A DNA stretch of 64,000 nucleotides from Naegleria gruberi (taxonomy: Eukaryota): the NCBI GenBank assembly GCA_000004985.1, contig GG738847.1; one strand, given 5' to 3'. The notes below the pieces were generated by a model, which saw only the letters and a list, made by a program, of their open reading frames with translations, had not been told where the DNA came from and did no database searches. Of the stretch, positions 22,879 to 38,858 are shown one piece after another (the stretch's first letter is position 1; each line of letters begins with the position of its first letter). The position numbers were made by a program, and so were the translations under genes.

Positions 22879-24276
22879 ATGAGTTTTGATGGTTTTGAAG
22901 AAATTGCAAGCACGTTGATTCAAGCCAATCACGTGAAACAAGCTTTGCAAGCTGTAAACAAACAGCAAAAGATGTACAAAACACTCCTCTCACAAAGACA
23001 ATTACCAAAGGAGGGATTTTCGGATCAACAGATTGAGTCCTTGCTTTCCTTCTTTGCATCAATGGATACGAATAATTATGAAAATCATATCGGAATTGGA
23101 GAAAGAGAAGGAAGAGTGTTTAGTAAATTGGTGGAAAAGAGACACTTCTACCTCAGTCATGGTATTGGAAGATCTGGAGAATTAACATCAAATCAACCAA
23201 AAGCAGCTGGATCCTCTATTATTTTACAGTTGTGTAACTATCTTGTCAATCATGCAATTCAATTAGCAGGATGTAAAAATGTAAAGAAATCAATTGTTGT
23301 GCCAATGTGTACAGGAATGACACTTGCCTTGTGTCTGAGATCCTTGGCCAACAGTTTGGAACAGCCCAATAAGAAGTATGTCATTTGGCCAAGAATAGAT
23401 CAACAATCTGTCCTCAAATCTATTGACACTGCTGGATTTACACCAATAGTCATTGAGAATGTTTTAAATGAGGATGGATCTATTGAGGCAAATCTACAAT
23501 CTATTGAAAGCAAGATACAACAAGTTGGAGCTGAAAATATTTTGTGTGTCTTGTCGACAACAAGTTGTTTTGCACCTCGAGTTCCAGATGATGTTTTTGA
23601 AATTGGAAAGATTTGTTTCAAGTATGGAATTGGACAAGTTGTAAATAATGCCTATGGAGTTCAATCAAAAATAATTATGGAGAGAATTAACAAGACAATT
23701 GCCAGTTCAAAATCAACCATTACTTGTTTCGTTCAGAGTACTGATAAGAACTTTATGGTACCTGTCGGAGGAGCTGTTGTTTCCAGTGGTAGTGATATCA
23801 CCTTTATTGATAAGGTGTCGAAAATATATGCAGGAAGAGCATCCATGACACCAATTCTTGACCTATTCATCACTCTTCTATCAATGGGTAAAGATGGATG
23901 GGAGAAGCTTCTCGCAGAACGAGAGGTGCTATTTCAACATTTTGTTTCTGAGATTGAATCCAAATTAACCAATACCCAATCTAAATTTTCCTTAATACGA
24001 GGCTCTTTACAGAGAAACCAAATTTCATTTGCTCTTTCCATTGATTTACCAAAGGAGGAGGCACTAAAGGTGGGCGTATCGCTTTTTTACAGAAATTGTA
24101 CTGGTCCTCGGGTAGTTCTGAAAGGTAGCTCAAAAACAGTACTCCCCCATCTTTCATTTGTTGGATATGGTTCTCATACTGATTCCTATCCTCATCATTA
24201 CATTACGCTTGCTTGCGCTATTGGTATTGAAAAGGAGGAAATTGAATCCTTCTTAACCTTGCTTAATAAAGTTTAA
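22879..24276 (+). CDS. SEPSECS: O-phosphoseryl-tRNA(Sec) selenium transferase (SepSecS, SLA/LP family), 465 aa, single exon
   Basis: GIGEREGRVFSKLVEKRHFYLSHGIGRSGELTSNQPKAAGSS, WPRIDQQS, STTSCFAPRVPD, VNNAYGVQS and the PLP-lysine context STDKNFMVPVGG align closely with SepSecS along the whole length. Confidence 0.9.
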   Translation: MSFDGFEEIASTLIQANHVKQALQAVNKQQKMYKTLLSQRQLPKEGFSDQQIESLLSFFASMDTNNYENHIGIGEREGRVFSKLVEKRHFYLSHGIGRSGELTSNQPKAAGSSIILQLCNYLVNHAIQLAGCKNVKKSIVVPMCTGMTLALCLRSLANSLEQPNKKYVIWPRIDQQSVLKSIDTAGFTPIVIENVLNEDGSIEANLQSIESKIQQVGAENILCVLSTTSCFAPRVPDDVFEIGKICFKYGIGQVVNNAYGVQSKIIMERINKTIASSKSTITCFVQSTDKNFMVPVGGAVVSSGSDITFIDKVSKIYAGRASMTPILDLFITLLSMGKDGWEKLLAEREVLFQHFVSEIESKLTNTQSKFSLIRGSLQRNQISFALSIDLPKEEALKVGVSLFYRNCTGPRVVLKGSSKTVLPHLSFVGYGSHTDSYPHHYITLACAIGIEKEEIESFLTLLNKV

Positions 24277-25546: not shown

Positions 25547-27836
25547 ATGTCTACCAAACGAGGAAAGGAAGCCATTCTCAAATTCTGTCAACGTGCCTGT
25601 CAAGAACGTGGCGTTGAAGTAAAGAATTTATCAACATCTTTTGCTGATGGTTTGGCATTTGCTGCCATCGTTGATAGTGTATGTATTGATTCTTTTAACA
25701 TTCCCTAACCTTCCTCTTTCACTTTTTTGTATTCTATATATGATTTAACTCTTTCTAACATTATAGCAAAGACCAGAACTCTTGACAAACATGGGTTTAA
25801 CTTTCAAGACCATCCAGGATGATTTTGGTCGTGTTGAAAGACTTCAATGGGCTTTCGATCAAGCAGAACAATTGGGCATTCCACGTCTATTGGATCCAGA
25901 AGATATCGATCCAGAAAAACCAGATGAAAGATCCATCATTACATATCTCTCGGCTGTTTATAAATTCTTTAAGGAAAATGCAGGATCAGGTGCTGCTTCT
26001 TCTGAACAACAAGCCTCCGAAACAACTTCTGCCGCCACTTCTCCAGAAGCTACTGCAGCAGAAACAACACCAATTGAACAACAATCAACTACAGAAGAAA
26101 ATGGCGCCACTTCTACTACTGAAGAGGCTGTGGTTGTAGAACCAACTGCTGCTACTGCTGAAGAGACACCAGCTGCTGTTGTAGAAGAGACACCAGTCGA
26201 ACCAACACCTTCACCAACAACTGAAGAGCAACCAACTGAAGAAACAACTCAACAACCAACTGAAGAAGCTACTGTCGTTGAAGCTGTTGTTGAGTCTGGA
26301 ACTAATGAACTTGTTGCTGAAAAGACTGAATTGACTGATGATGAAAAATTGATTTTACAAGATAATACTGAAGTTCATGTTGATGTTGTTACTCCACAAC
26401 CAAGTGTTGAAGAAACTTTCCCATCTTCTCTTTCCACAACTGCTAGTGCTGGAGGTGCTTCAATTGCTGAAGAGCAATCACTCTCAGAAACTAAATCAGA
26501 TAGCTCATCTGATTCTGAAGAAGAAGAATCTGTTCCTGTTGTTGATAAAAGATCACCACGTCGTGTTACTGAAAGAGTTGCAAGTGTTGTTTCTCAAGTT
26601 ACTGCAACAACTCCAACTAGAGATTGGTCCTTTGATGATTCTGATGATGAGGATAATTCATCTCGTGGTCGTAATACTGGATCTTCATTGGCTTCTCAAG
26701 AAAGAGTTAATGAATTGAGAGATAAGATTGAACAACTCAAGCAAAATGTCAAGCAAGAACAACTTGATAAGGAACGTCTCAAGAAGCGTGAAATGGAATT
26801 GGAAAATGAACTTCAAAAGTATTTGAATGATTTGAAACGTGCTCGTTCTGAAGTTGAAGAAGCCAAATTGCAAGGAAAGCAAGAAAAGGAGTTGGAATAC
26901 GAAGCTCGTCACAAGGTTGAAATTGAAAAGTCTAACCTTTACAATGAAAACAGAAAGTTGTTGGAAACTATTTCTGATTTGGAAAGACAAGTTAGAGAAA
27001 ACCAACAAGGTGAAAAGTCATTGAATAAGGATATTCAAAAATTGCAAAGAACTATTGAAAAACTTCAAGCTGAAAAGAACAGTGAAGTTGAAGACAAGCT
27101 CAGATTGGAAAATGACGTTTCTGATTTGAAGAGACAATTAACTACTGTTACTTCTCAATTCAAGACTTCCCAACAAGTTAGCTCAAATGCTGAACTAGAA
27201 TTACAATCATTGAAGAACTTCTTTGAAAAGGAAAAGAGAAACAGAAAGTTGCTCAACCAAGAAATTAAGGATCTCAAAGGTGAACGTGATGCATTGACCC
27301 TTGAATTGGAAGATGTTCGTGATGAAATTCACAAGTTTGAAATCCGTATCAAGGAAGTTGAAATGGAAAAGGAACAAGAAGCTAGAAAACTCAAAGTTGA
27401 ATTGGAAGAAAGAGTTAATATGGATAATCGTATGAAGCAAATCAGAAAGGACGTTACTGACATGAAGTACAAGGTTGAACAAGAAAGACAAAACGTTCTC
27501 ACTGTTGAAGCTCAAAAACGTAAGCTCGAAGAAGAACTTGCTCTTTCACACACCAAGTATGACCAATTACAACAAGAATTCTCTGCTATGAAGAGAGAAG
27601 TCAAGAAGGCCGAACGTGAAGTTCAAAAGGCTGAAAAGAGAGCTGACACTGAAGAACAACGTTCAAATGAATTGAAGGTTCAACAAAATCAATTGCGTGA
27701 TGAAATTCGTCAATGGAAAGAAAAGGTTACAAAGGCTGAATTCGAAACTGACAAGGTCAAGAGAGAAAAGGAAAGCCTTGAAAGAACTATCAGAGAATTA
27801 GAGTTGCAACTCTCATTCAAATCAAGCAGTTTTTAA
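25547..27836 (+). CDS. Calponin-homology (CH) domain protein with T/E/P-rich linker and long C-terminal coiled coil (733 aa). Exons 25547..25678 and 25767..27836. Intron 25679..25766 (GTATGT..TTCTAAC..TAG).
   Basis: AILKFCQRACQERGVEVKNLSTSFADGLAFAAIVDS|QRPELLTNMGLTF...ITYLSAVYKFF is a CH domain. The C-terminal 400 aa form heptad-rich E/K/L coiled coil. Confidence 0.8.
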
Positions 27837-27874
27837 ATTTGTAAATCATAAAATGAACCAATATTTTGGTAAAT

Positions 27875-30800
27875 TTATTGTTGTTCTTGATTAAGATTGA
27901 CTTGACGAGCTTGATTTTCATTGATAGAGTAAATATCTACCATTTGGAGTGGAATTGGATTAACTCTACGCTTTGATTCTTGTTCGGTTGGGACTACAAA
28001 TACGCTCTTCTTGCCTTCCTTTGGATCTTCTTTAATTTGAACCTTAATATAATATCCTCCATCCTTATGCTTAACAATATTTGCATGGTGAAGCATTGGA
28101 TCATCAGAAATTTGACCATTGTTAACATAAGGTTCTCTTGGAAGTTGACCAACAGGGAATCTCTCTGGTTTTGGTTTAATTTCACCTCTTGGATAAGCTC
28201 TATTATTTGCAGGTTCAACAGTTGGAGGATAATTTTTAAATGTTGCTTGATTATCACCCGGATATGGATTACTAACGTAATTTGTTCTTGAATCAATATA
28301 TGAAGCATTGTTTCTTGCCTCTGAATAACCATTATTTCTTGATTCTGAATAGGCATTATTTCTAGTTTCAACGTAAGAGTTGTTTACGCGCAAGTTATTA
28401 TTGGCTTGACTATTGGATTGGTATGAACTGCTTTGCATTTGAGTACTTGAAATCTTATTATTCATACCAATATTCAATGTGTTTGGAAGATCAGGTCTAA
28501 CAACAGGTTCTTGAGATCCATCATTAAAGTAAGTCTTATAAGTTGTTTCATAAATACCAACTGTTGAGGCTTTTCCATAGCCTGAATAATCAATTTCAGA
28601 ACTCACATTCTTCAATCTATTTTCAGCAACTTCATTTCTGGCAACATATGTGCTTGCAACTTTTGGTTTTTGATTTTCAACAACAATTGAAACTGGTCGA
28701 ACAATTTCCGGTTTTTGTGGTTGTTCATATACTGGAGGGTCAAATCTTGGAGGACTGATATAATCATTAACTGGAACAACTCTTGGAGGAGTTTCATAAG
28801 AGTTATTATTGGATTGAGCAAATTCATTTCTTTGTCTATTTTCAACAACTCTACTTTCAACAACAGTGGCCTTATTATTATTACTAATACCAACAAAATC
28901 GCCGTCAACTCTCCAAACAGGACCTGAACTGATTGGGAGAGGTTGTTCTTGAGTACCATCATTCTTATAATAGGTCTTGTAAGTTGTTTCATAGGTTCCT
29001 GTTGTTGATTTACCATAGTTAGAATGGTCAATTTCTGTAGAGGAATTCTTCATTCTGTTTTCATTCATAGCATTAACTGATTCAACTCTAAGGTTAAGAT
29101 TGGCTTGTCCTGTAACTATGTTATTTCTATCTTGGACAATTGATCTCTCATTGTAATAGACAATGTCGTTCTTCTTATTGTTATCAACTACGTATGAAGA
29201 ATCTGTTTGATTATTATAGCTGGAAAGTTGAGATTGTTCATGCATGTATTTTTCTTGCATTCTGTACGCATCTCTATTTTCAACATATTCTTCATTAATA
29301 TAAGAATCATTGACAACTCTTTCAGGAATTGGTTGAGGGATTGGTTGAGAAACGACTTGCTGTGTCATAATTGGCTTTGGAATTACAGGAACAATTGGTT
29401 GATGAATGACTGGTTGCGAGTTTGTTTGTGGAGGAGGAACTGAAGATCTATTAACAACTTCAGTAACTCTTGCTGCTTGGTCAGTGTTAACATAGTTCGA
29501 TGAATTGTTATGAACAACTTTTTCGTAGTATCCTTCATGTTGATCATTCATGTCAGTCATTGAAGATTGGTTATGGATAACAGACTTTTCAATATTGACA
29601 CGTCCATTATCATTAACAGTTTTAACAATTTCAGATCTGGAGCCATTATTATCTGTAACAGTTGTCTTGACTGTTTCATAGGAACTGTAATTGTTGTTTT
29701 GTCCACTCTTATTATTGACAACTTGTTCTGTTTCAACAGTTTTAGTTTCCAACTTGACAGCAGTGGTATTAGCACCCTTTGTTATATCAATATTTCTATC
29801 ATTAGAGCTCTTATTAACAACAGTCTTGGTTTCAGACTTAGTTTCAGTTGATTCAACGGACTTTCTATTTTGGTTTGCATTTTCTGGAGGTGTTCTCTTA
29901 ACCTTTTTAGCTTCGGTCTTCTTCTTGGCTTCGGTCTTACTCTTGGCTTCAATCCTACTCTTAACTTCATTCTTAGAATTAGAAGCAACCTTTTGCAAAA
30001 CGTGTTTACTTTCTTCTGTCTTTGGGGATGGCTTCTTAATTAATTGAGGTTCAGATTTAGTCTTCTTAGTTTCAGGAGCTGAAATACTTCTACTTGGGTT
30101 TGCCATTTTAACTGGTTTAGCTTCTTGTCTTTTAACAATCTTCCCAGGTGGTGAACCATTTCTTGCTCTATTGTTTACTGCCTTTACAATTCTTTCATTT
30201 GCTTGCATTCTTTCTTGATTAACATCTTTTTGTTGTTGAAGGAGGTTATTTTTTGATTTACGTTCATAAAAATTGATTTTTCCATTATTATTATTCTTAG
30301 CTTGTTCATTCTTGTTGTGGTAGTGTGTCTTTGTTTCAGTTGTAATTTTGCCATTATCATTAATTTCAATTGTGATTTCAGTTCTAGTACCTCGCTCATC
30401 AGTGATAGTTCTCCTTGTTTCCTTCTTTATAATGTTATGTTCAGAGAATTGATTATTCTTTGAACGATTATTGACAACTGCTTCTTGGTTGTTGTAACTC
30501 TCGTCATAATCTTCAGAACGTTCAACATTAGTTCTTTTTCCATTCACCAATGTACTCTTTTCAACATTAACCTTTCCATTATTATTCACACCCTTAACTA
30601 TTTCTGTTCTTGTTCCATTTTCATCTGTAACTGTACGCTTTGTTTCATAAGTGCTGTAGTTGGAAGATTCTGAATCATTCTTCTTGGCTTTCTTTTCCAC
30701 CACATAATTTTCTTCCTGTTGGTTATTCTTTGATTGGACCTTAATAGGTTTCTTTGGTTTTGGTGGAATGAATTGTGGTTTTTGTTTGACAACCTTTTCT

Positions 30801-33800
30801 TCAACCACATAAGAAGGTTCTTGTTTAACAACCTTTTCAACAATTGTTTCTTGTTGTGGGATGAACTTTGGTTGTTGCTTTACAATCTTTTCTTCTTCAA
30901 CAATTTGACTGTGTTTCTCTTCAGAATGAATTCTTTCGTCATAGGAAGATCTCCTATTAATATTACCATTGTCATTAACTTCCTTTACAACTTCAGTTCT
31001 TGTTCCATTATTATCACTAACAGTTTTAGAAGACTCGAATGAGCTGTAACTTGAACTCCTTGTTCTGGAACCATTAAGCTTATCTTCAGTAAAGTGTTCT
31101 GGAAGAGACAGAATGTTTTTAGATGAGGTGTGCATAGTTTGGTGTATTTCTTGTTTTGGTTCATAGCTATTCTTTGATGTGACGATCTTTTCTTCATCAT
31201 AATCTTCTGTTGCAAAAAGTTGATCTTCAACGCTCTCCTCGACAGCTTCTTGTTCTTTTTCTACAACATATTTAGCAGAATCTTTTCTGATAAATCTTGG
31301 TTCTTCAATATGTTCTTCAACTTCATTTTCTTCGATGTATTGAGATTTTTGCTTAATCAATGGCTTACTTGGTTTTGGAGGGCTAACTACCTTTGGAACA
31401 TGTCTTGGTTCATCTATTAGCTTTTCTTCGACACGTTTTGGCACATGATGAATTGCAGTCTCTCTTGGCTTTGGGCTAACAACCTTTGGAAGATAAACTG
31501 GTTCATCAATCTTTTCTTCAACCTCATAGGAAACGTGTTCGACAGTATCTCTTGGTGAAGGAGAGAATTCATTTCTTTGTCTAACAATTTTCTCTTCTAC
31601 TATTGTTTCTTGTGGTGTTTCTTCTACAGCCTTTTCCTCTACGTGGAGCAATGCCTCTTGGTCATAATGTTGAGTCTCTCCATAGCTAGAAGTTACTCTA
31701 CTCCTGCCAGTGCTTCTTCTTGCAGAAGCATATGATCTTCTGGATGAACATTTGGATTCCTTCTCCTTTTCGGATAATTCAGTCAAGAATGGAGGAGCAA
31801 AGTAATCATCACTAGTGCTTTGTTTTGTAATGAAAGTGCTGTTAAACTCTTCTTGAGCAATTGGTGCAGTGTTCTTTGCATGATTACTAACTGCTTGTTC
31901 TTCTTCAATCATAAAGGATGGTTCGACATATTCTTGCTTTACAACACCAGCCTTCTTGTCATTTTCATAAACACTCTTTTCAATATTAACTTTTCCATTA
32001 TCGTTCACTCCCTTAATAATTTCTGTTCTTGTTCCATTATTGTCACTAACAGTATTTGAAGATTCATAAGTACTATAGTTTGTGTAGAATCCACCAGTCT
32101 TTAATCTGGCATCGCCAAGATGTTCTTGAGTTAAAATCTGACCATTATTATTAGATGATTCATAAGTACTATAACTTGTACTATATCCAGTCTTGATGGC
32201 TCTGACATCACCATGATGTTCCTGAGAAGAATATTCCCCGGTATGAAGATTTCTGGAAGCATTAGTAACACCTCTATCATTGTTCATAGCATTTGGATAA
32301 ACATCATAACCATTACCTGAAACAACCTCAGAGTGACCATTTTGAGAAAACACCTTTTCCACATTGACTTTACCATTGTCATTGACCCCTCTTATGGTTT
32401 CAGTTCTCGTTTGTCCATTTTCATCAGTGTAAGTTCTTGTTGTTTCATAGGTACTATAGTTATTAGAATAGCCAGCATTCGAATTGGTTCTATTTTGAGC
32501 AGCAGAAACAGCAACAAGTTCATGCTTTTCACGGCTTCCTTTAGAAGAGAATGGCGATTCAGTTCTTGAAGATTTGCTGCTTTGGTTTCTTGAACCATAC
32601 GTATTAATCTTGTTTGTGTAATATTGGGCATTACTGTTTGAAACAGTTCTTGAGTACTCATTGAAATCTTCATTATGATAGTCATCCAATGTTGTTGACT
32701 CTTGATTCATCTCATCAACTGTTTGGTGATATTCATACCCTCTGTTAGTTTCAGAGTGGGATTTCATAAATGGTACATGTTCATGTTGCTCACGAGCATA
32801 ATTAATAGCTTGCCTACTTCCGTGAGAAGAGGAATAATGACTACCTTTAAAGCTACTACCTCTACTGTATTCTCTTTTTTCTTCTTCACTGTTACTTCTA
32901 CTGGTGAGAGTACGATAGCTTCCTGTATCCTTAATATCAGCCATTGACCTCATATGTTCGTAATTGACAACAGAATGTCCTCCTTCTTTAGTCTCTGTTA
33001 TCATTTGTCTATTTTGCATTTCCTCGGTGCTGACAAAGGTACCACCCTCTTTCCTATAGGCATGAGCACTGGTTGTTTGTCTTGCCACTCCTTCCAACAT
33101 ATTTTGATTGCTTGCATATTGGCTATCAGACGAATTGGTTGTTGTATTGGTTGTGGTGGTTACAACTTTCTTACCTCCATTCTTCTCTAACATTTCAATA
33201 TCAGTGTCGACAGCTTTTGCCACCAACATGATTGTCCCGTCCTTCATTCTCTTACCAACGTACACTACCTTCTTTTTGACAACTACATCTTGTTGGTATT
33301 TCTTCTTGTAATAGCAGCAGCATACGGCCACACAAATGAATGTAATAGTAAAAACACAACAAACCAATAAGATACCACCTGCAACGCAAATAATGATAAT
33401 ATAGGAAACATAGGTGACGGTAGTTGTTTCCATCACGAAAACATTGGTCAAATGATTACATTTACATTTAACAAGTGAAGAATTCAAGGAGGTGTAAGTG
33501 CAATTTGTTGTGGAAAAAGTTGCCAAGCTTGCTGCAGAATCTTCAAAATTAGCACAGTAGAAAATTCTTGATTGAACTACATATGAAAATGATTGTTGAG
33601 TTAGGTCATGAACAATGTTGGTGGTATTCACTGGAATGATATATTCTATACCTTCCCCATTAAACGAGACAGGATTATCAGTAATGGCAAGAGAGACAAT
33701 TGGAGAAACGGCACTTGATAATTTGTAAGTAGATGGTAAGCTTGTCTTGAGAGGGGTGTTCAACTTCTTGTTGAGACCAATGATATCATCAGAAACAATT

Positions 33801-36800
33801 AAAGCATGGGCGAAAGGCTTTGTAATAATTGTTGTCTGAGGTGAGAAGAGAGAAGTAGAGATGGATGTAGATGATTCAACTTGTAAAAGAGTTGCTTGAT
33901 AATTGTATAGAGTACTCTTTCCAACAGTTGAATGGTAGAACGACCCTCTGACATATTCTGGATAATTTACATTGATTTCTCTTGCTCTCAAAAGAGAGAA
34001 TTTCTTCATAATTCTAAAGACCTTGATACCGTTAGAATAACCTCCTCCATTTCTATCATAAATATAATGATATACATTATTTAAACATTTGATCAAGAGA
34101 TTATAAAGTTCAATAGGTATTCCAAGATCTGAAACTAATAAGGCATCATCCATAAATTTGTCCAAAGTTGTTAAGGCTTGAGAAATTGTTATGTTACTGA
34201 GATATGGATAGTTTGTTATGAGAGAATCTATGGCAATAGATACCATGATGACATAATCTTGATCAACTACAACATTAGTTCCATTGAAAACTTGGAGCAT
34301 GCTTCTCAATAGCGTTGACTTATCCATTTGAATATTATCATATTCGGTCACATGAACATCACAATTGTTTCCTACATATCCATCGGCGCATTTACAAGCT
34401 CCAGATGTTGTTTGTATACCATTTGTACACTCCTTTGCAGTGGAGAGTAAATCGAGCCCATTAAGAGCAGAGTTGAGCAAAACAGAATCAATTTTTGAAG
34501 TTGCAGATGATTGATAGAAACTCTTTCCAAAAGCACCAGAAGTGAGATATGAATCACTTAAAGAATTAAAACCTTGTGACTTTTCTAATACAAGGGTGAC
34601 ATTTGAAGCTACTGCAGGTAAAGTTACAGTAATGTCCTTGTAAATTGTCGTTGTTGATTCAGTGGTAACATCAATAATATCAAAGAAAACGGTTACCTTA
34701 TTGGAAAGTGTTGGACCTGGCAATTTAGTAGAAAAGAAATTACCCTTATTGTAGAGAGAAACTTTTAAATTGGCTCTATCATCTATATAACCAAACCTAA
34801 AATCTATATTATTGATCGAGCTCTTACAATTCAAACAATAAAACTGAAATTGTGATTCCATAGCACTACCACTGGTTGGTGAAATGTCACAATTACACAC
34901 TTTTGGAGAGATGCCCACTTGGAAGTTGTAAGTTAGTTGGGTGGATTGACTGATTGTTCCGTCGTTAACCACTACTCGCAAAACATTAGAAGAACCTTCT
35001 GTTAACTTAGAAGAATCAACCTTTACAGTTTGAGATGACCCTGATTGAATTATTCCTGAGTATAAAGTAACGCCGTTCAAACTCCATGTTGAATTTGTCT
35101 TGTCAGAGAAAGATGTCACAAATATTTGTGAGACGAAATTCTTTCCTGGAGCTATTACTGACGATTTTGGTTCAATTGTAACAAAGTTTACAACTGGAGG
35201 AATTGTTTGAAAATAAATGGTTATGCCCTTGGTTATGCTTCTCATATCTGACTTTACAATTTGGAGAGAAATATCAACGGATCTTGGAATGATATCGAAT
35301 AAAGAAGTGGAAACTGTAAAGTAAGTCTTTTTGGTGTTGGAAATGGCACTTAGTAAGGTGAGAAGACGAGGAGAGGTATTATCTAAACAGGTCCAGGTCC
35401 ACGTCTCTGATGAGAGTGTGTTGAATATTGATTCTGGATCAGAATAGTCAACTTGAACTGTTGTGTAATCTGATTTAGCTTCATATTTCATCAAGTTCAA
35501 AATTAAATTAGGAGATTGAGTGTTGAGTGTAATGATACTTGATGTCTTTGTGCTTTGATCCAAAGCATAATATGCGGAAACTTTAAATGTATATGTATTA
35601 CTACCAAATGTTGTCAATTTTGGAATAAAAAGATCATTATATGAATCTACATTATATGCAACACTTGGTCCACTCAATTGAGACCATTCGACCACTATTG
35701 TATCACCATTAGCCCTACAGGATGAGTGCTCAACAAATTTGTTAATCAGTAATGGAAATTGATTTGAGTATTTAGTCAGAGTGTATTGATCCTTTGCAAT
35801 TGTTAAAATTGGCAATACTTTTGTTGATTTCACAAAAGTACTAGAGTAAACTATGATACTATCCTTACTGAGGTATTCACTTCTTACTTGAAGTCTCATC
35901 TTGTAACTTCCGGCAGCGAGAGAGGAATCCAAAGTAATAAAGGCGCTATTAGCAAATGATGTGGATACCACACTCAAAGATGATGAATCCACCACTGCCC
36001 AGTTGTAGGTTAATGCCTTTCCATCTACCGAATAACTTTGAGAACCGTCAACAAGAATGGTATCACAAGAACTGAAGGTATCTACTGCTGGAAGTCTTAT
36101 TGTTGCTATTGGTGTTGCAATAACTGCTGGTGGATTAATAACAAAACTCAAATATGTTATAGTATTAGAAGATGTGGAATTATCAAAAGCACCGGCATTA
36201 ATTCTCAAATTACTAACCCCAGATTGAAGAGAAAAATCAATTGATCCAAACTTGATGAGAAAACGATACGTAGACTTGTCCAAGTAAAAACATCTCACAC
36301 TCGCACTGGTTCCATAAAGATCTCCAGATAAATCAGATGGATGTAAAACTTTGGAGCATGAGAGTTCAGAACCAGTAAAAGATGAAGGGGAATGAAAGAC
36401 GAATGAAATTCCTCTAAAGTCATCAGTTATTGTAGCAGGACCCGCAGCAGATGTGGCACATTTCTCTCCGTAGTATCCATTTTTACATGTATTACATGAA
36501 GCTCCCGTCCAATAACCTTCATCAGCATTGGAGTAACAAACACATGAATCAGAGACATCACATTCTCCATGACTTGAACAAGTTGTTTCTTTTGAGCATG
36601 CAGTGATTTCTTTTGAGTTGTATCTCCTTGTTGTTCGTCGTGGAGTGAATGAAACACCTTTCAAGAGTATATTTCCACCTTGTCCAACAATATACACCTT
36701 ACCGTCAATCTGTGTACTGGTGATGGAGGAAAGTTCATCAGTGAAGAGTTTACCCTTGAATACGCCACCTCTTATTTCACTTGATTTTGCGACGAAAACC

Positions 36801-37480
36801 AGATTATCAATTGAAGCATGTCTTGAGAGTTGGACATCCAAATGGTCAATAATGAGTCTTCCTTCTTCACTATTTGGAAACTTAAGAACCACCTCCTCAC
36901 TCCCCTTTACCACCAGGGTTGGTGGATTCACTTCGTTTGTTTGTGCAGCAAACCATCCATTCTCAAAGCAATAAATATTGCCTCCCTCAACTTGTAAAAG
37001 TGGCAAGTTGGAATCTGATGATGAAAATGTAAAATCGCATGGAGTGTCCATATATTGAGAGTAGGTTTTCCTTGCTGATGAATAAAGTTGTGTGGAGAGC
37101 TGGTCTCCATAGTGGAAAGAACCTCCGTTTTCAGTTAAGAATTGATGAGGAGATAATAAGCCTATCGACGAAACACTTGCTCCACTCACTTTTAGCGAAC
37201 AAGTTGAATCAACATGAACAAAATTTTGACCATTAACAAAGACATATTCTGCTAATGGGTCTTCTACTTTTGATGAACAAAACTTGCCACCAAATCCTGA
37301 ATAACAAAGACAAGTATCTTGATATGTACAAAAACCATGTCCTGAACAGACCCTACTTTTTTCACTCGAGTCTATTCCATTACATGTATATGAAAAAACT
37401 AGTCCTAGATTTAATAATAATAATAATAAAACGGTCGCTAACTTTGCCATTAAGGCTGGCCAGCGCAAATTCCTTGTCAT
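27875..37480 (-). CDS. Giant single-pass membrane receptor (about 3200 aa): signal peptide, EGF-like modules, REJ/PKD-like region, GPS motif, one TM, and about 1400-aa repetitive cytoplasmic tail. Single exon.
   Basis: The ORF track start at 37561 is TTG. Real ATGs lie at 37480 (MTRNLRWPALMAKLATVLLLLLLNLGLVFS) and 37450. EGF-like: CSGHGFCTYQDTCLCYSGFGGKFC, CNTCKNGYYGEKC, CKCADGYVGNNCD. GPS: VKCKCNHLTNVFVM, directly before the TM IIIICVAGGILLVCCVFTITFICVAV. Confidence 0.8.
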   Translation of the reverse strand: MTRNLRWPALMAKLATVLLLLLLNLGLVFSYTCNGIDSSEKSRVCSGHGFCTYQDTCLCYSGFGGKFCSSKVEDPLAEYVFVNGQNFVHVDSTCSLKVSGASVSSIGLLSPHQFLTENGGSFHYGDQLSTQLYSSARKTYSQYMDTPCDFTFSSSDSNLPLLQVEGGNIYCFENGWFAAQTNEVNPPTLVVKGSEEVVLKFPNSEEGRLIIDHLDVQLSRHASIDNLVFVAKSSEIRGGVFKGKLFTDELSSITSTQIDGKVYIVGQGGNILLKGVSFTPRRTTRRYNSKEITACSKETTCSSHGECDVSDSCVCYSNADEGYWTGASCNTCKNGYYGEKCATSAAGPATITDDFRGISFVFHSPSSFTGSELSCSKVLHPSDLSGDLYGTSASVRCFYLDKSTYRFLIKFGSIDFSLQSGVSNLRINAGAFDNSTSSNTITYLSFVINPPAVIATPIATIRLPAVDTFSSCDTILVDGSQSYSVDGKALTYNWAVVDSSSLSVVSTSFANSAFITLDSSLAAGSYKMRLQVRSEYLSKDSIIVYSSTFVKSTKVLPILTIAKDQYTLTKYSNQFPLLINKFVEHSSCRANGDTIVVEWSQLSGPSVAYNVDSYNDLFIPKLTTFGSNTYTFKVSAYYALDQSTKTSSIITLNTQSPNLILNLMKYEAKSDYTTVQVDYSDPESIFNTLSSETWTWTCLDNTSPRLLTLLSAISNTKKTYFTVSTSLFDIIPRSVDISLQIVKSDMRSITKGITIYFQTIPPVVNFVTIEPKSSVIAPGKNFVSQIFVTSFSDKTNSTWSLNGVTLYSGIIQSGSSQTVKVDSSKLTEGSSNVLRVVVNDGTISQSTQLTYNFQVGISPKVCNCDISPTSGSAMESQFQFYCLNCKSSINNIDFRFGYIDDRANLKVSLYNKGNFFSTKLPGPTLSNKVTVFFDIIDVTTESTTTIYKDITVTLPAVASNVTLVLEKSQGFNSLSDSYLTSGAFGKSFYQSSATSKIDSVLLNSALNGLDLLSTAKECTNGIQTTSGACKCADGYVGNNCDVHVTEYDNIQMDKSTLLRSMLQVFNGTNVVVDQDYVIMVSIAIDSLITNYPYLSNITISQALTTLDKFMDDALLVSDLGIPIELYNLLIKCLNNVYHYIYDRNGGGYSNGIKVFRIMKKFSLLRAREINVNYPEYVRGSFYHSTVGKSTLYNYQATLLQVESSTSISTSLFSPQTTIITKPFAHALIVSDDIIGLNKKLNTPLKTSLPSTYKLSSAVSPIVSLAITDNPVSFNGEGIEYIIPVNTTNIVHDLTQQSFSYVVQSRIFYCANFEDSAASLATFSTTNCTYTSLNSSLVKCKCNHLTNVFVMETTTVTYVSYIIIICVAGGILLVCCVFTITFICVAVCCCYYKKKYQQDVVVKKKVVYVGKRMKDGTIMLVAKAVDTDIEMLEKNGGKKVVTTTTNTTTNSSDSQYASNQNMLEGVARQTTSAHAYRKEGGTFVSTEEMQNRQMITETKEGGHSVVNYEHMRSMADIKDTGSYRTLTSRSNSEEEKREYSRGSSFKGSHYSSSHGSRQAINYAREQHEHVPFMKSHSETNRGYEYHQTVDEMNQESTTLDDYHNEDFNEYSRTVSNSNAQYYTNKINTYGSRNQSSKSSRTESPFSSKGSREKHELVAVSAAQNRTNSNAGYSNNYSTYETTRTYTDENGQTRTETIRGVNDNGKVNVEKVFSQNGHSEVVSGNGYDVYPNAMNNDRGVTNASRNLHTGEYSSQEHHGDVRAIKTGYSTSYSTYESSNNNGQILTQEHLGDARLKTGGFYTNYSTYESSNTVSDNNGTRTEIIKGVNDNGKVNIEKSVYENDKKAGVVKQEYVEPSFMIEEEQAVSNHAKNTAPIAQEEFNSTFITKQSTSDDYFAPPFLTELSEKEKESKCSSRRSYASARRSTGRSRVTSSYGETQHYDQEALLHVEEKAVEETPQETIVEEKIVRQRNEFSPSPRDTVEHVSYEVEEKIDEPVYLPKVVSPKPRETAIHHVPKRVEEKLIDEPRHVPKVVSPPKPSKPLIKQKSQYIEENEVEEHIEEPRFIRKDSAKYVVEKEQEAVEESVEDQLFATEDYDEEKIVTSKNSYEPKQEIHQTMHTSSKNILSLPEHFTEDKLNGSRTRSSSYSSFESSKTVSDNNGTRTEVVKEVNDNGNINRRSSYDERIHSEEKHSQIVEEEKIVKQQPKFIPQQETIVEKVVKQEPSYVVEEKVVKQKPQFIPPKPKKPIKVQSKNNQQEENYVVEKKAKKNDSESSNYSTYETKRTVTDENGTRTEIVKGVNNNGKVNVEKSTLVNGKRTNVERSEDYDESYNNQEAVVNNRSKNNQFSEHNIIKKETRRTITDERGTRTEITIEINDNGKITTETKTHYHNKNEQAKNNNNGKINFYERKSKNNLLQQQKDVNQERMQANERIVKAVNNRARNGSPPGKIVKRQEAKPVKMANPSRSISAPETKKTKSEPQLIKKPSPKTEESKHVLQKVASNSKNEVKSRIEAKSKTEAKKKTEAKKVKRTPPENANQNRKSVESTETKSETKTVVNKSSNDRNIDITKGANTTAVKLETKTVETEQVVNNKSGQNNNYSSYETVKTTVTDNNGSRSEIVKTVNDNGRVNIEKSVIHNQSSMTDMNDQHEGYYEKVVHNNSSNYVNTDQAARVTEVVNRSSVPPPQTNSQPVIHQPIVPVIPKPIMTQQVVSQPIPQPIPERVVNDSYINEEYVENRDAYRMQEKYMHEQSQLSSYNNQTDSSYVVDNNKKNDIVYYNERSIVQDRNNIVTGQANLNLRVESVNAMNENRMKNSSTEIDHSNYGKSTTGTYETTYKTYYKNDGTQEQPLPISSGPVWRVDGDFVGISNNNKATVVESRVVENRQRNEFAQSNNNSYETPPRVVPVNDYISPPRFDPPVYEQPQKPEIVRPVSIVVENQKPKVASTYVARNEVAENRLKNVSSEIDYSGYGKASTVGIYETTYKTYFNDGSQEPVVRPDLPNTLNIGMNNKISSTQMQSSSYQSNSQANNNLRVNNSYVETRNNAYSESRNNGYSEARNNASYIDSRTNYVSNPYPGDNQATFKNYPPTVEPANNRAYPRGEIKPKPERFPVGQLPREPYVNNGQISDDPMLHHANIVKHKDGGYYIKVQIKEDPKEGKKSVFVVPTEQESKRRVNPIPLQMVDIYSINENQARQVNLNQEQQ
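28530..32480 (-). repeat. Intragenic tandem protein repeats in the cytoplasmic tail of the giant receptor (at least 8 degenerate units of about 35-40 aa)
   Basis: Repeated units: NYSTYETKRTVTDENGTRTEIVKGVNNNGKVNVEKS; YSTYESSNTVSDNNGTRTEIIKGVNDNGKVNIEKS; YSSYETVKTTVTDNNGSRSEIVKTVNDNGRVNIEKS; and terminal YETTYKTY(Y/F)xNDG(T/S)QE units. Confidence 0.6.
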
Positions 37481-38858
37481 TTTTTTGTTTGCTGACCGTA
37501 ACAAACTAAGCTTTAAACTTTCACAAGACTTTGTGAACAAATTAAGGTGGAGCGTTTCCAAACGAGGCCTCTTCAGTTACTTCTGCACTCGATAACTTAG
37601 TTTCCTTCTCCGATCCCAATACTTCCTTAAGGGAATTGATGCCTTGTTAGATTTTCGGTTACTGATATTCTCGCTGTGTTTTTTTGCCGCAACAATCAAT
37701 TCATCACTTCCCTTAATTTTTTCCTCTTTGTAGTTTAACCAACGCCAATAATAATGTAAATAGGTTGTGTAATCATTGACTGAATAGGAAACTTGAGACA
37801 TTGGCTAAAAAACTTAATGAAATATATTTCATACCTCACCTAGAAATCAAGGCCTAAAAGCTAAGTTGACTTCTAATTAGAAGGCAGGAGTGATTTTTTT
37901 TTTTCTCTGGGGTTTTCTATTGAAAATCAAATTAGAAGTGGAAATAAATGGTAATCTTGCTCAAACTCAACATAACAAACTGGGAAATTCTTTAACTGGC
38001 ATTGATGAAAAAAGTTCTGATGAACTATTAAGTTTCCACCTTTCTTCAAGTCATTTCGGTATAGAATTCATTCTCTTTACTAAACTATTTTGAACAAACA
38101 CTTTATGGAAGTGCCGCTCAATAAAAAGTACCTCAATCATTACTAACAACAAACAAAATAACTTTTCCATCTTTGTTGATAACAATTACTAATAATATGA
38201 TCAATAAAACTGTTCCATCCTTAATACTTCAAAGGGTCAATATAAATTACCAAAGAAACCATTTTGTATTGATGCGGATCTTTTAACACTATTAACAGAT
38301 TTTATCTACCCTTTCCTATGCGCGTCATGGTTCAACATTGAGAAAAACTCATCACCAATAACGACAAATAAGAATTGACGATGCTTTTAAATACAAAAGT
38401 GGCTCCTCTAGCTGATTGTGTCTGCTTTCACCCAACAAGTCCAAGTTACTTGGCGTTTTTGTTTGCATCTCCCTGATGTACTTGTTGTTAACTTGCGTAG
38501 AATAATTAGAGAAAAAAAACAACGCAACTTTGCAGGTATTGAAGGTATAAATCACAACAACAAGCCTTTGAAAAATTAATTGATACTCTGCGGTTTGGAT
38601 TCAACCTCAAATACCAATCATACAACAATAGTACGAGAGTGTGTGAACGCATTGTTTAAACTTGTTTCAAGTATCTTCATAGTCACCGTTTAATTCTCTC
38701 TTCGAATATATTAGCATTTTGTGATCAAACAAGCCTTCCGAAATTTACCCTCTTTGATCATCACAACCACCACATTTTGTATACTACTGCTACCAATCGC
38801 TAATACTTCCATCAAATCTCCACACAATTGTAACATATAACTCTCCTAGGAATACACC

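What the first reader, a model, noticed from the sequence alone, without database searches (positions are those of the whole stretch)
27875..37480. Giant single-exon receptor combining EGF, REJ/PKD-like and GPS modules with one TM, an architecture not matching known GPS families
The GPS (GAIN) cleavage motif CKCNHLT|NVFV sits about 20 aa before the only predicted TM helix. Upstream are a signal peptide, tenascin-like EGF modules and a long Ig/PKD/REJ-like beta-rich region. GPS normally occurs in 7TM adhesion GPCRs or 11TM polycystin-1 proteins. Here it is in a single-pass protein with a roughly 1400-aa cytoplasmic tail. The gene is one uninterrupted 9.6-kb exon in a genome otherwise full of introns. 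The true start is an ATG at 37480, not the TTG at 37561.
Basis: partly seen in the sequence, partly recalled or inferred. Interest (0 to 1): 0.7.

Follow-up and report, generated by a model that had tools for sequence, protein, structure and literature searches.

The report
Naegleria single-pass REJ–GAIN receptor, giant tail
This 9.6-kb gene of a Naegleria amoeba encodes a real single-pass surface protein whose outside part is built like the polycystin-1 / sea-urchin egg-jelly-receptor ectodomain, ending in a self-cleaving-type GAIN/GPS domain; that design already has precedents and many Naegleria relatives, and the unusual part is an 1,810-residue disordered inner tail with repeats found nowhere else.

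Summary
The ORF is real: 27875..37480 on the minus strand, 3201 aa from the first ATG. It has a signal peptide and one transmembrane segment (aa 1357-1391), with no further hydrophobic segment.

The ectodomain reads EGF, ice-binding-like beta-helix, two EGF, an unassigned module, K319L-type PKD, REJ (56 bits; cutoff 25), EGF, then GAIN with CKCNHL|TNVF. Pfam GPS alone is below threshold (17-21 bits; cutoff 22.5). The GAIN call rests on a family profile that hits latrophilin-3 GAIN (E=2.4e-7) and on an AlphaFold model (pLDDT 81) whose 11 best PDB matches are all GAIN domains.

The window comes from a Naegleria of the gruberi group. Seven N. gruberi "predicted proteins" share the whole ectodomain at 37-40% identity. 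All are single-pass with tails of 64-184 aa. A jakobid protein and sea-urchin SpREJ1 show the same EGF/REJ/GPS/one-TM design, so the architecture is not unprecedented.

Three points of the finding need correction. The tail is about 1810 aa, not 1400. The window is not intron-rich (83% lies in long ORFs). REJ only appears when fragments are scanned.

The new features are the giant disordered tail with six orphan 41-aa repeats and the canonical His-Leu|Thr site, which the closest paralogues lack. Cleavage and function are inferred, not shown.

The parts
27875..37480 (-). Complete coding sequence: 3201 codons plus the stop at 27875-27877, with no interruption.
   Evidence: P(open by chance) is about 4e-105. 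Codon usage of both halves correlates r=0.95 with ten other window ORFs.
37394..37480 (-). Signal peptide (aa 1-29), with basic n-region and Leu-rich core.
   Evidence: Hydropathy peak 2.28 at aa 10-28; sequence.
37274..37354 (-). EGF-like domain 1 (aa 43-69), teneurin/tenascin type.
   Evidence: EGF_Teneurin 30.5 bits and EGF_2 22.4 bits. Reelin EGF match.
36611..37183 (-). Ice-binding-like (DUF3494) beta-helix domain (aa ~100-290).
   Evidence: A profile of this domain and its paralogue copies (A3) hits solved ice-binding/DUF3494 proteins at E=4.7e-9 to 1e-5. P0002 has a sub-threshold Pfam Ice_binding hit.
36458..36598 (-). EGF-like domains 2-3 (aa 295-341).
   Evidence: Second EGF_Teneurin stretch. 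Alignment to the mastigoneme protein OCM3 EGF.
36080..36457 (-). Conserved module of unassigned fold (aa 342-467).
   Evidence: Aligned end to end in paralogues P0001-P0004, P0008 and P0009. No Pfam hit.
35861..36079 (-). PKD (K319L-like) Ig-type domain (aa ~468-540).
   Evidence: Pfam is below threshold at 17 bits. Direct phmmer matches to proteins made of K319L-like PKD repeats.
34532..35698 (-). REJ domain (aa ~595-983).
   Evidence: PF02010, E=2.8e-15, 56.3 bits against a cutoff of 25, profile positions 14-442 of 452.
34361..34429 (-). EGF-like domain 4 (aa 1018-1040), directly before GAIN.
   Evidence: Four invariant Cys in alignment A1. The A1 profile hits teneurin EGF repeats at 1.8e-8.
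33425..34351 (-). GAIN domain (aa 1044-1352): helical subdomain A (aa 1044-1166) and beta-sandwich subdomain B (aa 1175-1351).
   Evidence: AF2 model with pLDDT 80.8 and pTM 0.79. The top 11 Foldseek PDB hits are all GAIN domains; best is BAI3 4dlo_A, E=8.6e-14. Profile hit to ADGRL3 GAIN at E=2.4e-7.
33437..33466 (-). GPS core CKCNHLTNVF (aa 1339-1348). Putative scissile bond L1344|T1345.
   Evidence: Pfam GPS 21.0 bits, below the 22.5 cutoff. Aligned with the ADGRD1 GPS, all four Cys matched. In the model, HLT sits in the loop between the last two strands.
33308..33412 (-). Single transmembrane segment with Cys-rich inner end (aa 1357-1391), followed by KKK.
   Evidence: Hydropathy 3.04; the only peak apart from the signal peptide.
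27878..33307 (-). Cytoplasmic tail (aa 1392-3201, 1810 aa). It is rich in N/S/E/K/T, has one Cys and one Trp, and is predicted disordered.
   Evidence: Composition. Uversky mean hydropathy 0.37, below the 0.413 boundary; zero stops against 48-303 in the other frames. No Pfam or PDB match.
32348..32470 (-). Tail repeat copy 1 (aa 1671-1711).
   Evidence: hmmsearch 69.7 bits.
31967..32089 (-). Tail repeat copy 2 (aa 1798-1838).
   Evidence: 75.9 bits.
30938..31063 (-). Tail repeat copy 3 (aa 2140-2181).
   Evidence: 69.0 bits.
30551..30670 (-). Tail repeat copy 4 (aa 2271-2310).
   Evidence: 77.3 bits.
30323..30448 (-). Tail repeat copy 5 (aa 2345-2386).
   Evidence: 66.3 bits.
29579..29701 (-). 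Tail repeat copy 6 (aa 2594-2634).
   Evidence: 68.9 bits.
28790..29074 (-). C-terminal duplicated module, copy A (aa 2803-2897).
   Evidence: 46% identity to aa 2949-3039, E=6e-18.
28364..28636 (-). C-terminal duplicated module, copy B (aa 2949-3039).

Best explanation
The gene encodes a type I, single-pass surface glycoprotein. It belongs to a Naegleria-expanded family whose ectodomain is homologous to the PKD-REJ-GAIN/GPS module of polycystin-1 and the sea-urchin REJ proteins.

Shown here:
- The domain order is signal peptide, EGF, ice-binding-like beta-helix, two EGF, an unassigned module, PKD, REJ, EGF, GAIN, one TM.
- An 1810-aa low-hydropathy tail follows, with six dispersed 41-aa repeats.

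Inferred by analogy with adhesion GPCRs and polycystin-1:
- The GAIN domain cleaves itself in the ER at His1343-Leu1344|Thr1345.
- The ~1344-aa N-terminal fragment stays held non-covalently through the last beta-strand (TNVFVME) on a C-terminal fragment made of a ~12-aa stalk, the TM and the tail.
- The outer modules bind a substrate, prey or another cell, and the REJ region acts as an extensible stalk.
- There is no 7TM or 11TM bundle to receive a tethered agonist. Information therefore has to pass through the single helix by clustering or by shedding of the N-terminal fragment.
- The disordered tail would serve as a multivalent docking scaffold through its repeats.
- The CCC-YY-KKK inner end of the TM is a likely palmitoylation and stop-transfer site.
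For: - ORF and topology.
- REJ at 56 bits; EGF above cutoff.
- PKD by direct homology to K319L-like PKD arrays.
- GAIN by sequence: ADGRD1 GPS alignment with all four Cys matched, E=0.0026. The family profile hits ADGRL3 GAIN at E=2.4e-7 over about 200 positions.
- GAIN by structure: AF2 model pLDDT 80.8. The 11 best PDB matches are all GAIN domains, best E=8.6e-14, TM-score 0.56.
- HLT lies in the loop between the last two strands of the model.
- Family: 291 relatives. The seven best are N. gruberi proteins at 37-40% identity over aa ~293-1350, all single-pass.
- More distant single-pass relatives carry the canonical CxCxHLTxFA motif, for example the Stygiella protein P0056 with Pfam GPS 38 bits.
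- The tail is coding and disorder-like and is built of repeats.
Against: - Pfam GPS is below its gathering score. The two Trp of the canonical GPS are Phe here (CANF...ATF).
- The seven closest paralogues lack the His. Two family members, P0004 and the more distant P0017, have Gly in place of the Thr nucleophile. Cleavage is therefore evidently dispensable in this family, and an HL|T motif alone does not guarantee cleavage.
- No transcript, protein or localisation data exist for this gene.
- No partner or motif in the tail could be identified. Simple motif scans were unremarkable, so the scaffold role is a guess from composition and repetition.
Confidence: 0.55

Rival explanations
1. The architecture is the same, but the GAIN domain does not cleave. 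It serves only as a rigid juxtamembrane stalk, as it probably does in the paralogues, and the protein acts as an uncleaved adhesin.
For: The seven closest paralogues have Q/K/R/T/S instead of His at P2. Two family members, P0004 and the more distant P0017, have Gly at P1'. The canonical GPS Trp residues are absent and Pfam GPS is below threshold. Uncleaved GAIN domains are known, for example the BAI2 structure 'in the uncleaved state'.
Against: This protein retains the full His-Leu-Thr triad that its paralogues lost. The more distant single-pass and multi-pass relatives also keep it, which suggests selection for it here.
Confidence: 0.3
2. Notch-like relay. Ligand or force removes the N-terminal fragment, the short stub is then cut within the membrane, and the 1810-aa tail or parts of it are released into the cytoplasm or nucleus as the signal.
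For: The protein is single-pass and a ~12-aa stalk would remain after GPS cleavage. The very large soluble tail has basic stretches. There is no 7TM or 11TM to receive a tethered agonist.
Against: This is entirely by analogy. No protease site, nuclear localisation signal or DNA-binding domain was identified, and there is no Pfam or PDB hit in the tail.
Confidence: 0.08
3. The long ORF is not one protein. The tail would be a separate gene, an in-frame retained intron or 3' region, or an assembly join, and the true receptor would have a short tail like its paralogues.
For: All relatives examined have tails of at most 184 aa. The tail has no relatives anywhere. No transcript data exist.
Against: The tail has 1810 codons without a stop, against 48-303 stops in the other five frames. 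Its in-frame codon usage matches other genes at r=0.95, against 0.67 and 0.57 off-frame. No stop separates the TM from the tail. The ORF ends 38 bp from the stop of the convergent neighbour.
Confidence: 0.05
4. It is a conventional polycystin-1-like or adhesion-GPCR-like multi-pass protein whose further TM helices were overlooked.
For: REJ and GPS normally accompany 11 TM. Multi-TM relatives exist in Heterolobosea, for example the Percolomonas protein P0043.
Against: The best hydropathy window anywhere in the tail is 0.76. There is no PLAT, PKD_channel or 7tm hit. All close paralogues are single-pass.
Confidence: 0.02

Closest known systems
Naegleria gruberi 'predicted proteins' XP_002673696, XP_002668922, XP_002669085, XP_002673599, XP_002674088, XP_002670695, XP_002673629 (uncharacterised)
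   Same: They share 37-40% identity over the whole EGF/PKD/REJ/EGF/GAIN ectodomain. All have a single TM right after the GPS-like motif. Several carry the same ice-binding-like domains.
   Different: Their tails are 64-184 aa, against 1810 aa here. They lack the His of HL|T. None carries the 41-aa tail repeat. None is more than 40% identical, so no orthologue is on record.
Sea-urchin receptor for egg jelly 1 (SpREJ1/suREJ1), PKD1 family
   Same: It has EGF, REJ, a GPS upstream of the TM and a single TM (PMC1934368).
   Different: SpREJ1 has C-type lectin domains, is 1450 aa in total and has no long tail. This protein has an ice-binding-like and a PKD domain instead. It is an animal sperm protein rather than one from a heterolobosean amoeba. 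I did not test direct sequence similarity to SpREJ1.
Polycystin-1 (PKD1) and PKD1-like proteins
   Same: The PKD - REJ - GAIN/GPS order immediately before the first TM is the same. In PC1 the HL|T site is autoproteolytic.
   Different: This protein has no PLAT domain, no 11-TM or channel-like region and no C-terminal coiled coil.
Adhesion GPCR GAIN domains (BAI3, BAI2, CELSR1, latrophilins, GPR110, CD97, GPR126, GPR56)
   Same: They are the best structural matches to the modelled GAIN domain and the best PDB sequence matches. The stalk sequence TNVFVME resembles TxFAVLM.
   Different: There is no 7TM and no HormR domain. Sequence identity is 10-14%. The GPS Trp residues are replaced.
Stygiella incarcerata protein EP01028_P006494 (P0056), a jakobid
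   Same: It has EGF, K319L-PKD, REJ, canonical GPS (CRCNHLTDFA, 38 bits), one TM and a 46-aa tail.
   Different: It adds VWD domains and has a short tail. It is only a distant relative (E=9.7e-14).

Membership tests
GAIN/GPS domain (Pfam GPS PF01825; fold defined by Arac et al. 2012, PMC3321182) | Two-subdomain fold: an N-terminal helical subdomain followed by a twisted beta-sandwich that contains the GPS strands. | tested here: met
   AF2 model with pLDDT 80.8 has five helices and then a beta-sandwich. The top 11 Foldseek PDB hits are all GAIN domains, best E=8.6e-14.
GAIN/GPS domain | Four conserved GPS cysteines. | tested here: met
   C1309, C1327, C1339 and C1341 are invariant in the 18-sequence alignment and align with the ADGRD1 cysteines.
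GAIN/GPS domain | Two conserved GPS tryptophans. | tested here: not met
   Both positions are Phe (CANF...ATF). Distant relatives P0031 and P0043 keep Trp.
GAIN/GPS domain | Cleavage triad His-Leu|Thr/Ser/Cys in the loop before the last beta-strand. | tested here: met
   H1343-L1344-T1345 lie between strands 1336-1341 and 1346-1351 of the model.
GAIN/GPS domain | Pfam GPS profile score at or above the gathering threshold (22.5 bits). | tested here: not met
   17.4 bits on the full-length protein and 21.0 bits on the fragment.
GAIN/GPS domain | Actual autoproteolysis. | not testable with these tools
   This needs protein biochemistry.
GAIN/GPS domain | Position immediately N-terminal to the first TM helix. 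| tested here: met
   About 12 residues lie between T1345 and the hydrophobic segment that starts at 1357.
PKD1 / REJ family (polycystin-1-like) | REJ domain. | tested here: met
   PF02010, 56.3 bits, E=2.8e-15, nearly full profile length.
PKD1 / REJ family (polycystin-1-like) | PLAT/LH2 domain after TM1. | tested here: not met
   No Pfam hit of any kind in aa 1401-3201 at E<=5.
PKD1 / REJ family (polycystin-1-like) | Eleven TM helices with a channel-like C-terminal six. | tested here: not met
   Only one TM; the tail hydropathy maximum is 0.76. SpREJ1 and SpREJ2 also lack this region, with 1-2 TM.
Adhesion GPCR | 7TM domain (family B2) following the GAIN domain. | tested here: not met
   There is a single TM and no 7tm Pfam hit.
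Naegleria single-pass EGF-PKD-REJ-GAIN family (unnamed) | Collinear similarity across the ectodomain and a single TM after the GPS-like motif. | tested here: met
   E=2e-246 to 4e-148 for P0001-P0007, aligned over query positions 143-1200. TM layout.
Naegleria single-pass EGF-PKD-REJ-GAIN family (unnamed) | Short cytoplasmic tail (tens to less than 200 aa). | tested here: not met
   1810 aa here against 64-184 aa in the paralogues.

The most novel reading that the evidence does not exclude
This would be a cleavage-competent GAIN domain wired to a single helix and a 1,810-residue disordered tail with lineage-specific repeats, rather than to a 7TM or 11TM bundle. It would represent a pre-metazoan, non-GPCR way of using GAIN autoproteolysis in a discoban amoeba. 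Shedding of the N-terminal fragment by force or ligand would trigger clustering of the tail, or its Notch-like release, as the signal.
Probability: 0.1. Interest if true: 0.7.

Novelty: new variant of a known kind. Interest (0 to 1): 0.4.

Why it matters
- It places the full PKD-REJ-GAIN/GPS module, with an intact His-Leu|Thr site, in Heterolobosea (Discoba). The paper that defined the GAIN domain named Dictyostelium and Tetrahymena as its non-animal examples.
- In this lineage the module sits mostly on single-pass proteins. This supports the view that GAIN predates its fusion to 7TM and 11TM bundles and originally worked in simpler receptors.
- Naegleria can be cultured and is increasingly tractable. 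A family in which one member keeps the catalytic triad while its paralogues have lost it offers a natural comparison for asking what GAIN cleavage does without a GPCR.
- The giant repeat-bearing tail is an unexplained addition.
- The practical lesson is that full-length Pfam scans and word-index searches both failed on this protein. Fragment scans and exhaustive HMMER were needed.

Tried and rejected
Protein and locus searches that found nothing:
- Word-index protein search with aa 1-1420: no hit. This was a sensitivity failure, because exhaustive HMMER later found 291 relatives.
- Exact-product look-ups of the giant protein, SepSecS, CysRS and two other window ORFs, and of N. gruberi P0154 and P0001: nothing on record. 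I therefore could not examine the syntenic N. gruberi locus or paralogue gene structures.
- Tail repeat profile against 5.8 billion proteins: 9 candidates, none scoring.
- Tail repeat profile and whole tail against PDB sequences: nothing.
- Two JGI metagenome scans, one with the tail and one with REJ-GAIN-TM: no relatives.
- tblastn of the protein against the window: no paralogue nearby.

Methods that failed or were unavailable:
- Single-sequence AlphaFold of aa 1001-1390: unusable, pLDDT 38. It was replaced by the alignment-based model.
- Full-length Pfam scan: missed REJ.
- Foldseek against afdb50: library not available.
- Whole-tail blastp against itself reported no repeat pairs. I replaced it with chunked searches.

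Ideas considered and rejected:
- A multi-pass polycystin or adhesion GPCR (hydropathy argues against it).
- A chance ORF (probability about 1e-105).
- A bacterial or viral origin (the neighbours are eukaryotic housekeeping genes, and CysRS is 96% identical to that of N. gruberi).
Full report
**1. The observation**

The window holds one open reading frame at 27875..37561 on the minus strand. It has 3228 codons counted from the TTG that a bacterial-code ORF finder reports (translation). The first in-frame ATG is at 37480, preceded by AAACAAAAAA, and gives 3201 aa.

It is followed at once by MTRNLRWPALMAKLATVLLLLLLNLGLVFS, a typical signal peptide. A second Met at codon 10 is the start used by a metagenome gene call and cannot be excluded.

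At 34.7% G+C, an open stretch of this length has a chance probability of about 4e-105. A Kyte-Doolittle scan finds only two hydrophobic segments:
- the signal peptide;
- aa 1357-1391, YVSYIIIICVAGGILLVCCVFTITFICVAVCCCYY, followed by KKK.

The best 19-residue window anywhere downstream scores 0.76, against 3.04 for the TM. So the protein has one TM.

Several results show that it is coding:
- it has no stop in 1810 codons, against 48-303 stops in the other five frames;
- its in-frame codon usage correlates r=0.95 with ten other ORFs of the window, against 0.67 and 0.57 off-frame.

**2. Domains of the ectodomain**

A Pfam scan of the whole protein gave only a marginal EGF hit and a sub-threshold GPS hit (17.4 bits; cutoff 22.5). 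Scanning fragments changed the picture:
- REJ PF02010 scores 56.3 bits (E=2.8e-15, cutoff 25) over aa ~595-983, covering profile positions 14-442 of 452;
- EGF_Teneurin scores 30.5 bits and EGF_2 22.4 bits, both above cutoff;
- GPS rises to 21.0 bits, still just below cutoff;
- PKD_4 and K319L-like_PKD remain sub-threshold at 17 bits.

The PKD call is nevertheless secure. Residues ~471-545 directly match many proteins that Pfam shows to be arrays of K319L-like PKD domains.

A profile built from aa 70-295 and the equivalent paralogue segments (A3) hits solved ice-binding/DUF3494 proteins at E=4.7e-9 to 1e-5. There is therefore an ice-binding-like beta-helix (aa ~100-290) between the first EGF and the next two.

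**3. Is the GPS part of a real GAIN domain?**

Three independent lines say yes.

(i) The best PDB sequence match of the ectodomain is the GPS region of ADGRD1 (E=0.0026), with all four cysteines and HLT aligned.

(ii) I built an 18-sequence alignment of aa 1001-1352 with its relatives (A1). Its profile hits the GAIN domain of latrophilin-3 at E=2.4e-7 over about 200 positions. It also hits ADGRD1, ADGRF1, CELSR1 and latrophilin-1.

(iii) AlphaFold2 with that alignment gives a confident model (pLDDT 80.8, pTM 0.79). It shows an EGF, five helices and then a beta-sandwich. Its 11 best Foldseek matches in the PDB are all GAIN domains: BAI3 (E=8.6e-14, TM 0.56), BAI2, CELSR1, latrophilin-1 and -3, GPR110, CD97, GPR126 and GPR56.

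In the model, His1343-Leu1344-Thr1345 lie in the loop between the last two strands (1336-1341 and 1346-1351). Arac et al. (PMC3321182) describe the GPS motif as five beta-strands tightly integrated into the GAIN fold; that the cleaved loop precedes the last strand is my own recollection of the GAIN structures.

The sub-threshold Pfam score has an explanation. Both canonical GPS tryptophans are Phe in this protein.

**4. Source organism and relatives**

The neighbouring genes are eukaryotic: SepSecS, CysRS, EMC1, a TTC21-like gene, an ABC transporter, and ankyrin and cNMP-binding proteins. The CysRS is 96% identical to that of Naegleria gruberi, 73% to N. fowleri and 63% to Willaertia. The window is thus from a Naegleria of the gruberi group, but not identical to the reference proteins.

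An ENA metagenome contig is 99.6% identical to window 34694-38770, with five indels that break the ORF there.

The exhaustive HMMER search with aa 151-1350 found 291 relatives, 24 of them at E<=1e-30. The seven best are N. gruberi 'predicted proteins' at 37-40% identity, aligned from the second EGF to the GPS. Among them:
- all seven have a single TM directly after a GPS-like motif, and tails of 64-184 aa;
- six of the seven were scanned with Pfam. Five show teneurin-type EGF plus REJ; the sixth (P0003) shows only the EGF families. K319L-PKD is sub-threshold in two of them (P0001 and P0004).

More distant relatives show the range of the family:
- a Stygiella (jakobid) protein with VWD, EGF, PKD, REJ, canonical GPS (38 bits), one TM and a 46-aa tail;
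- a Percolomonas (heterolobosean) protein with the same module followed by at least six TM.

No relative is more than 40% identical. No orthologue is therefore on record, and I could not reach the N. gruberi genome to test synteny.

**5. What is and is not unusual**

That does not hold:
- sea-urchin SpREJ1 has EGF, REJ, a GPS upstream of the TM, and one TM (PMC1934368);
- Drosophila Cirl has a 1TM isoform (PMC13197933);
- the database holds many single-pass REJ-GPS proteins.

The contrast with 'a genome otherwise full of introns' is also weak. 83% of the window lies in stop-free stretches of at least 150 codons, although some neighbours are split (partial CH and EMC1_C matches).

Two features are distinctive.

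First, the tail is ten times longer than in any relative examined. It is rich in N/S/E/K/T, has one Cys and one Trp, and has a mean hydropathy in the natively-unfolded range. It contains:
- six dispersed copies of a 41-aa repeat, consensus NYSTYETxRTVTDNNGTRTEIVKGVNDNGKVNxEKS, each scoring 66-77 bits;
- a duplicated ~95-aa module near the C-terminus.

Neither the repeat nor the tail has any detectable relative in 5.8 billion proteins, the PDB, Pfam or JGI metagenomes.

Second, this protein keeps the canonical His-Leu|Thr. Its seven closest paralogues have Q/K/R/T/S instead of His. Two family members, P0004 and the more distant P0017, have Gly instead of Thr. The distant relatives keep HLT. This protein has therefore most likely retained an ancestral cleavage site that its sisters lost.

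**6. Mechanism**

Shown: the topology, the domain order, the GAIN fold and the presence of the catalytic triad.

Inferred, by analogy with adhesion GPCRs and polycystin-1:
- ER autoproteolysis at L1344|T1345;
- non-covalent retention of the N-terminal fragment through the last strand;
- ligand or substrate binding by the EGF, ice-binding-like, PKD and REJ modules;
- signalling through a single helix by clustering or shedding, with the repetitive disordered tail as a docking scaffold.

The main rival is that the GAIN domain is only a structural stalk here, as it probably is in the paralogues. A Notch-like release of the tail is possible but has no direct support. A split gene or an artefactual tail is unlikely given the codon-usage and stop-codon statistics, but only transcripts can exclude it. 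A multi-pass protein is excluded by hydropathy.

**7. Verdict**

The sequence observation is largely correct and the domain reading was good. The architecture, however, is a variant of a known kind and not a new one. It is a single-pass PKD1/REJ-type receptor with a GAIN domain, and a member of a sizeable uncharacterised Naegleria family.

Its giant orphan tail and retained cleavage triad make it moderately interesting. So does the fact that it documents the full PKD-REJ-GAIN module in Discoba. I found no paper describing this Naegleria family.

Noticed in passing
window 36611-37183 (-), aa ~100-290: There is an ice-binding-like (DUF3494) beta-helix domain inside the ectodomain. It recurs in one to five copies in N. 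gruberi paralogues P0002-P0005 and in the unidentified relative P0063. DUF3494 domains are usually discussed as secreted antifreeze or adhesin proteins of bacteria, fungi and algae, not as modules of REJ/GAIN receptors.
   Followed up: partly
window 29579-32470 (-), aa 1671-2634: Six dispersed 41-aa repeats (NYSTYETxRTVTDNNGTRTEIVKGVNDNGKVNxEKS) have no detectable relative in any library searched. A duplicated ~95-aa module also lies at aa 2803-2897 and 2949-3039.
   Followed up: yes
whole protein (method): The Pfam scan of the full-length 3201-aa protein missed a 56-bit REJ match that appears when a 540-aa fragment is scanned. The word-index homology search returned nothing, while exhaustive HMMER found 291 relatives. 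Long proteins with low-complexity tails can defeat both shortcuts.
   Followed up: yes
L001 (ENA ERZ929261 contig k127_102041, 4073 bp) = window 34694-38770: A metagenome contig is 99.6% identical to the window, with 5 indels. Because of these, the gene is called there as a 183-aa product and a 733-aa product. The same organism is thus present in an environmental sample, and this is the only trace of the gene in the protein libraries.
   Followed up: partly
alignment A1; paralogues P0001-P0007, P0017: The seven closest N. gruberi paralogues (P0001-P0007) have lost the His of the HL|T cleavage triad. Two family members, P0004 and the more distant P0017, have Gly in place of the Thr nucleophile. 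The four GPS cysteines are invariant throughout.
   Followed up: partly
window 27837-27874: Only 38 bp separate the stop of the giant gene (27875-27877, minus strand) from the end of the convergent CH-domain ORF (25782-27836, plus strand). This leaves almost no room for two 3' UTRs unless they overlap.
   Followed up: no
window 16855-19170 (-) and the whole window: CysRS is 96% identical to that of N. gruberi, but none of five window ORF products tested is on record as an exact sequence. The giant protein has no counterpart above 40% identity. The source is probably a gruberi-group strain or species absent from the protein libraries, or the gene is unannotated in the reference.
   Followed up: partly
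window 19434-21893 (-) and 49155-51932 (-): Two long ORFs (819 and 925 aa) have no Pfam match at E<=0.001.
   Followed up: no
window 22879-24276 (+): There is a complete SepSecS (O-phosphoseryl-tRNA(Sec) selenium transferase) ORF, E=4e-117. The organism therefore has selenocysteine machinery.
   Followed up: no
window 30001-32000: The strong AT skew (-0.32) coincides with the tail-coding region. It presumably reflects the A-rich Asn/Lys/Glu codons on the minus strand, not a replication feature.
   Followed up: no
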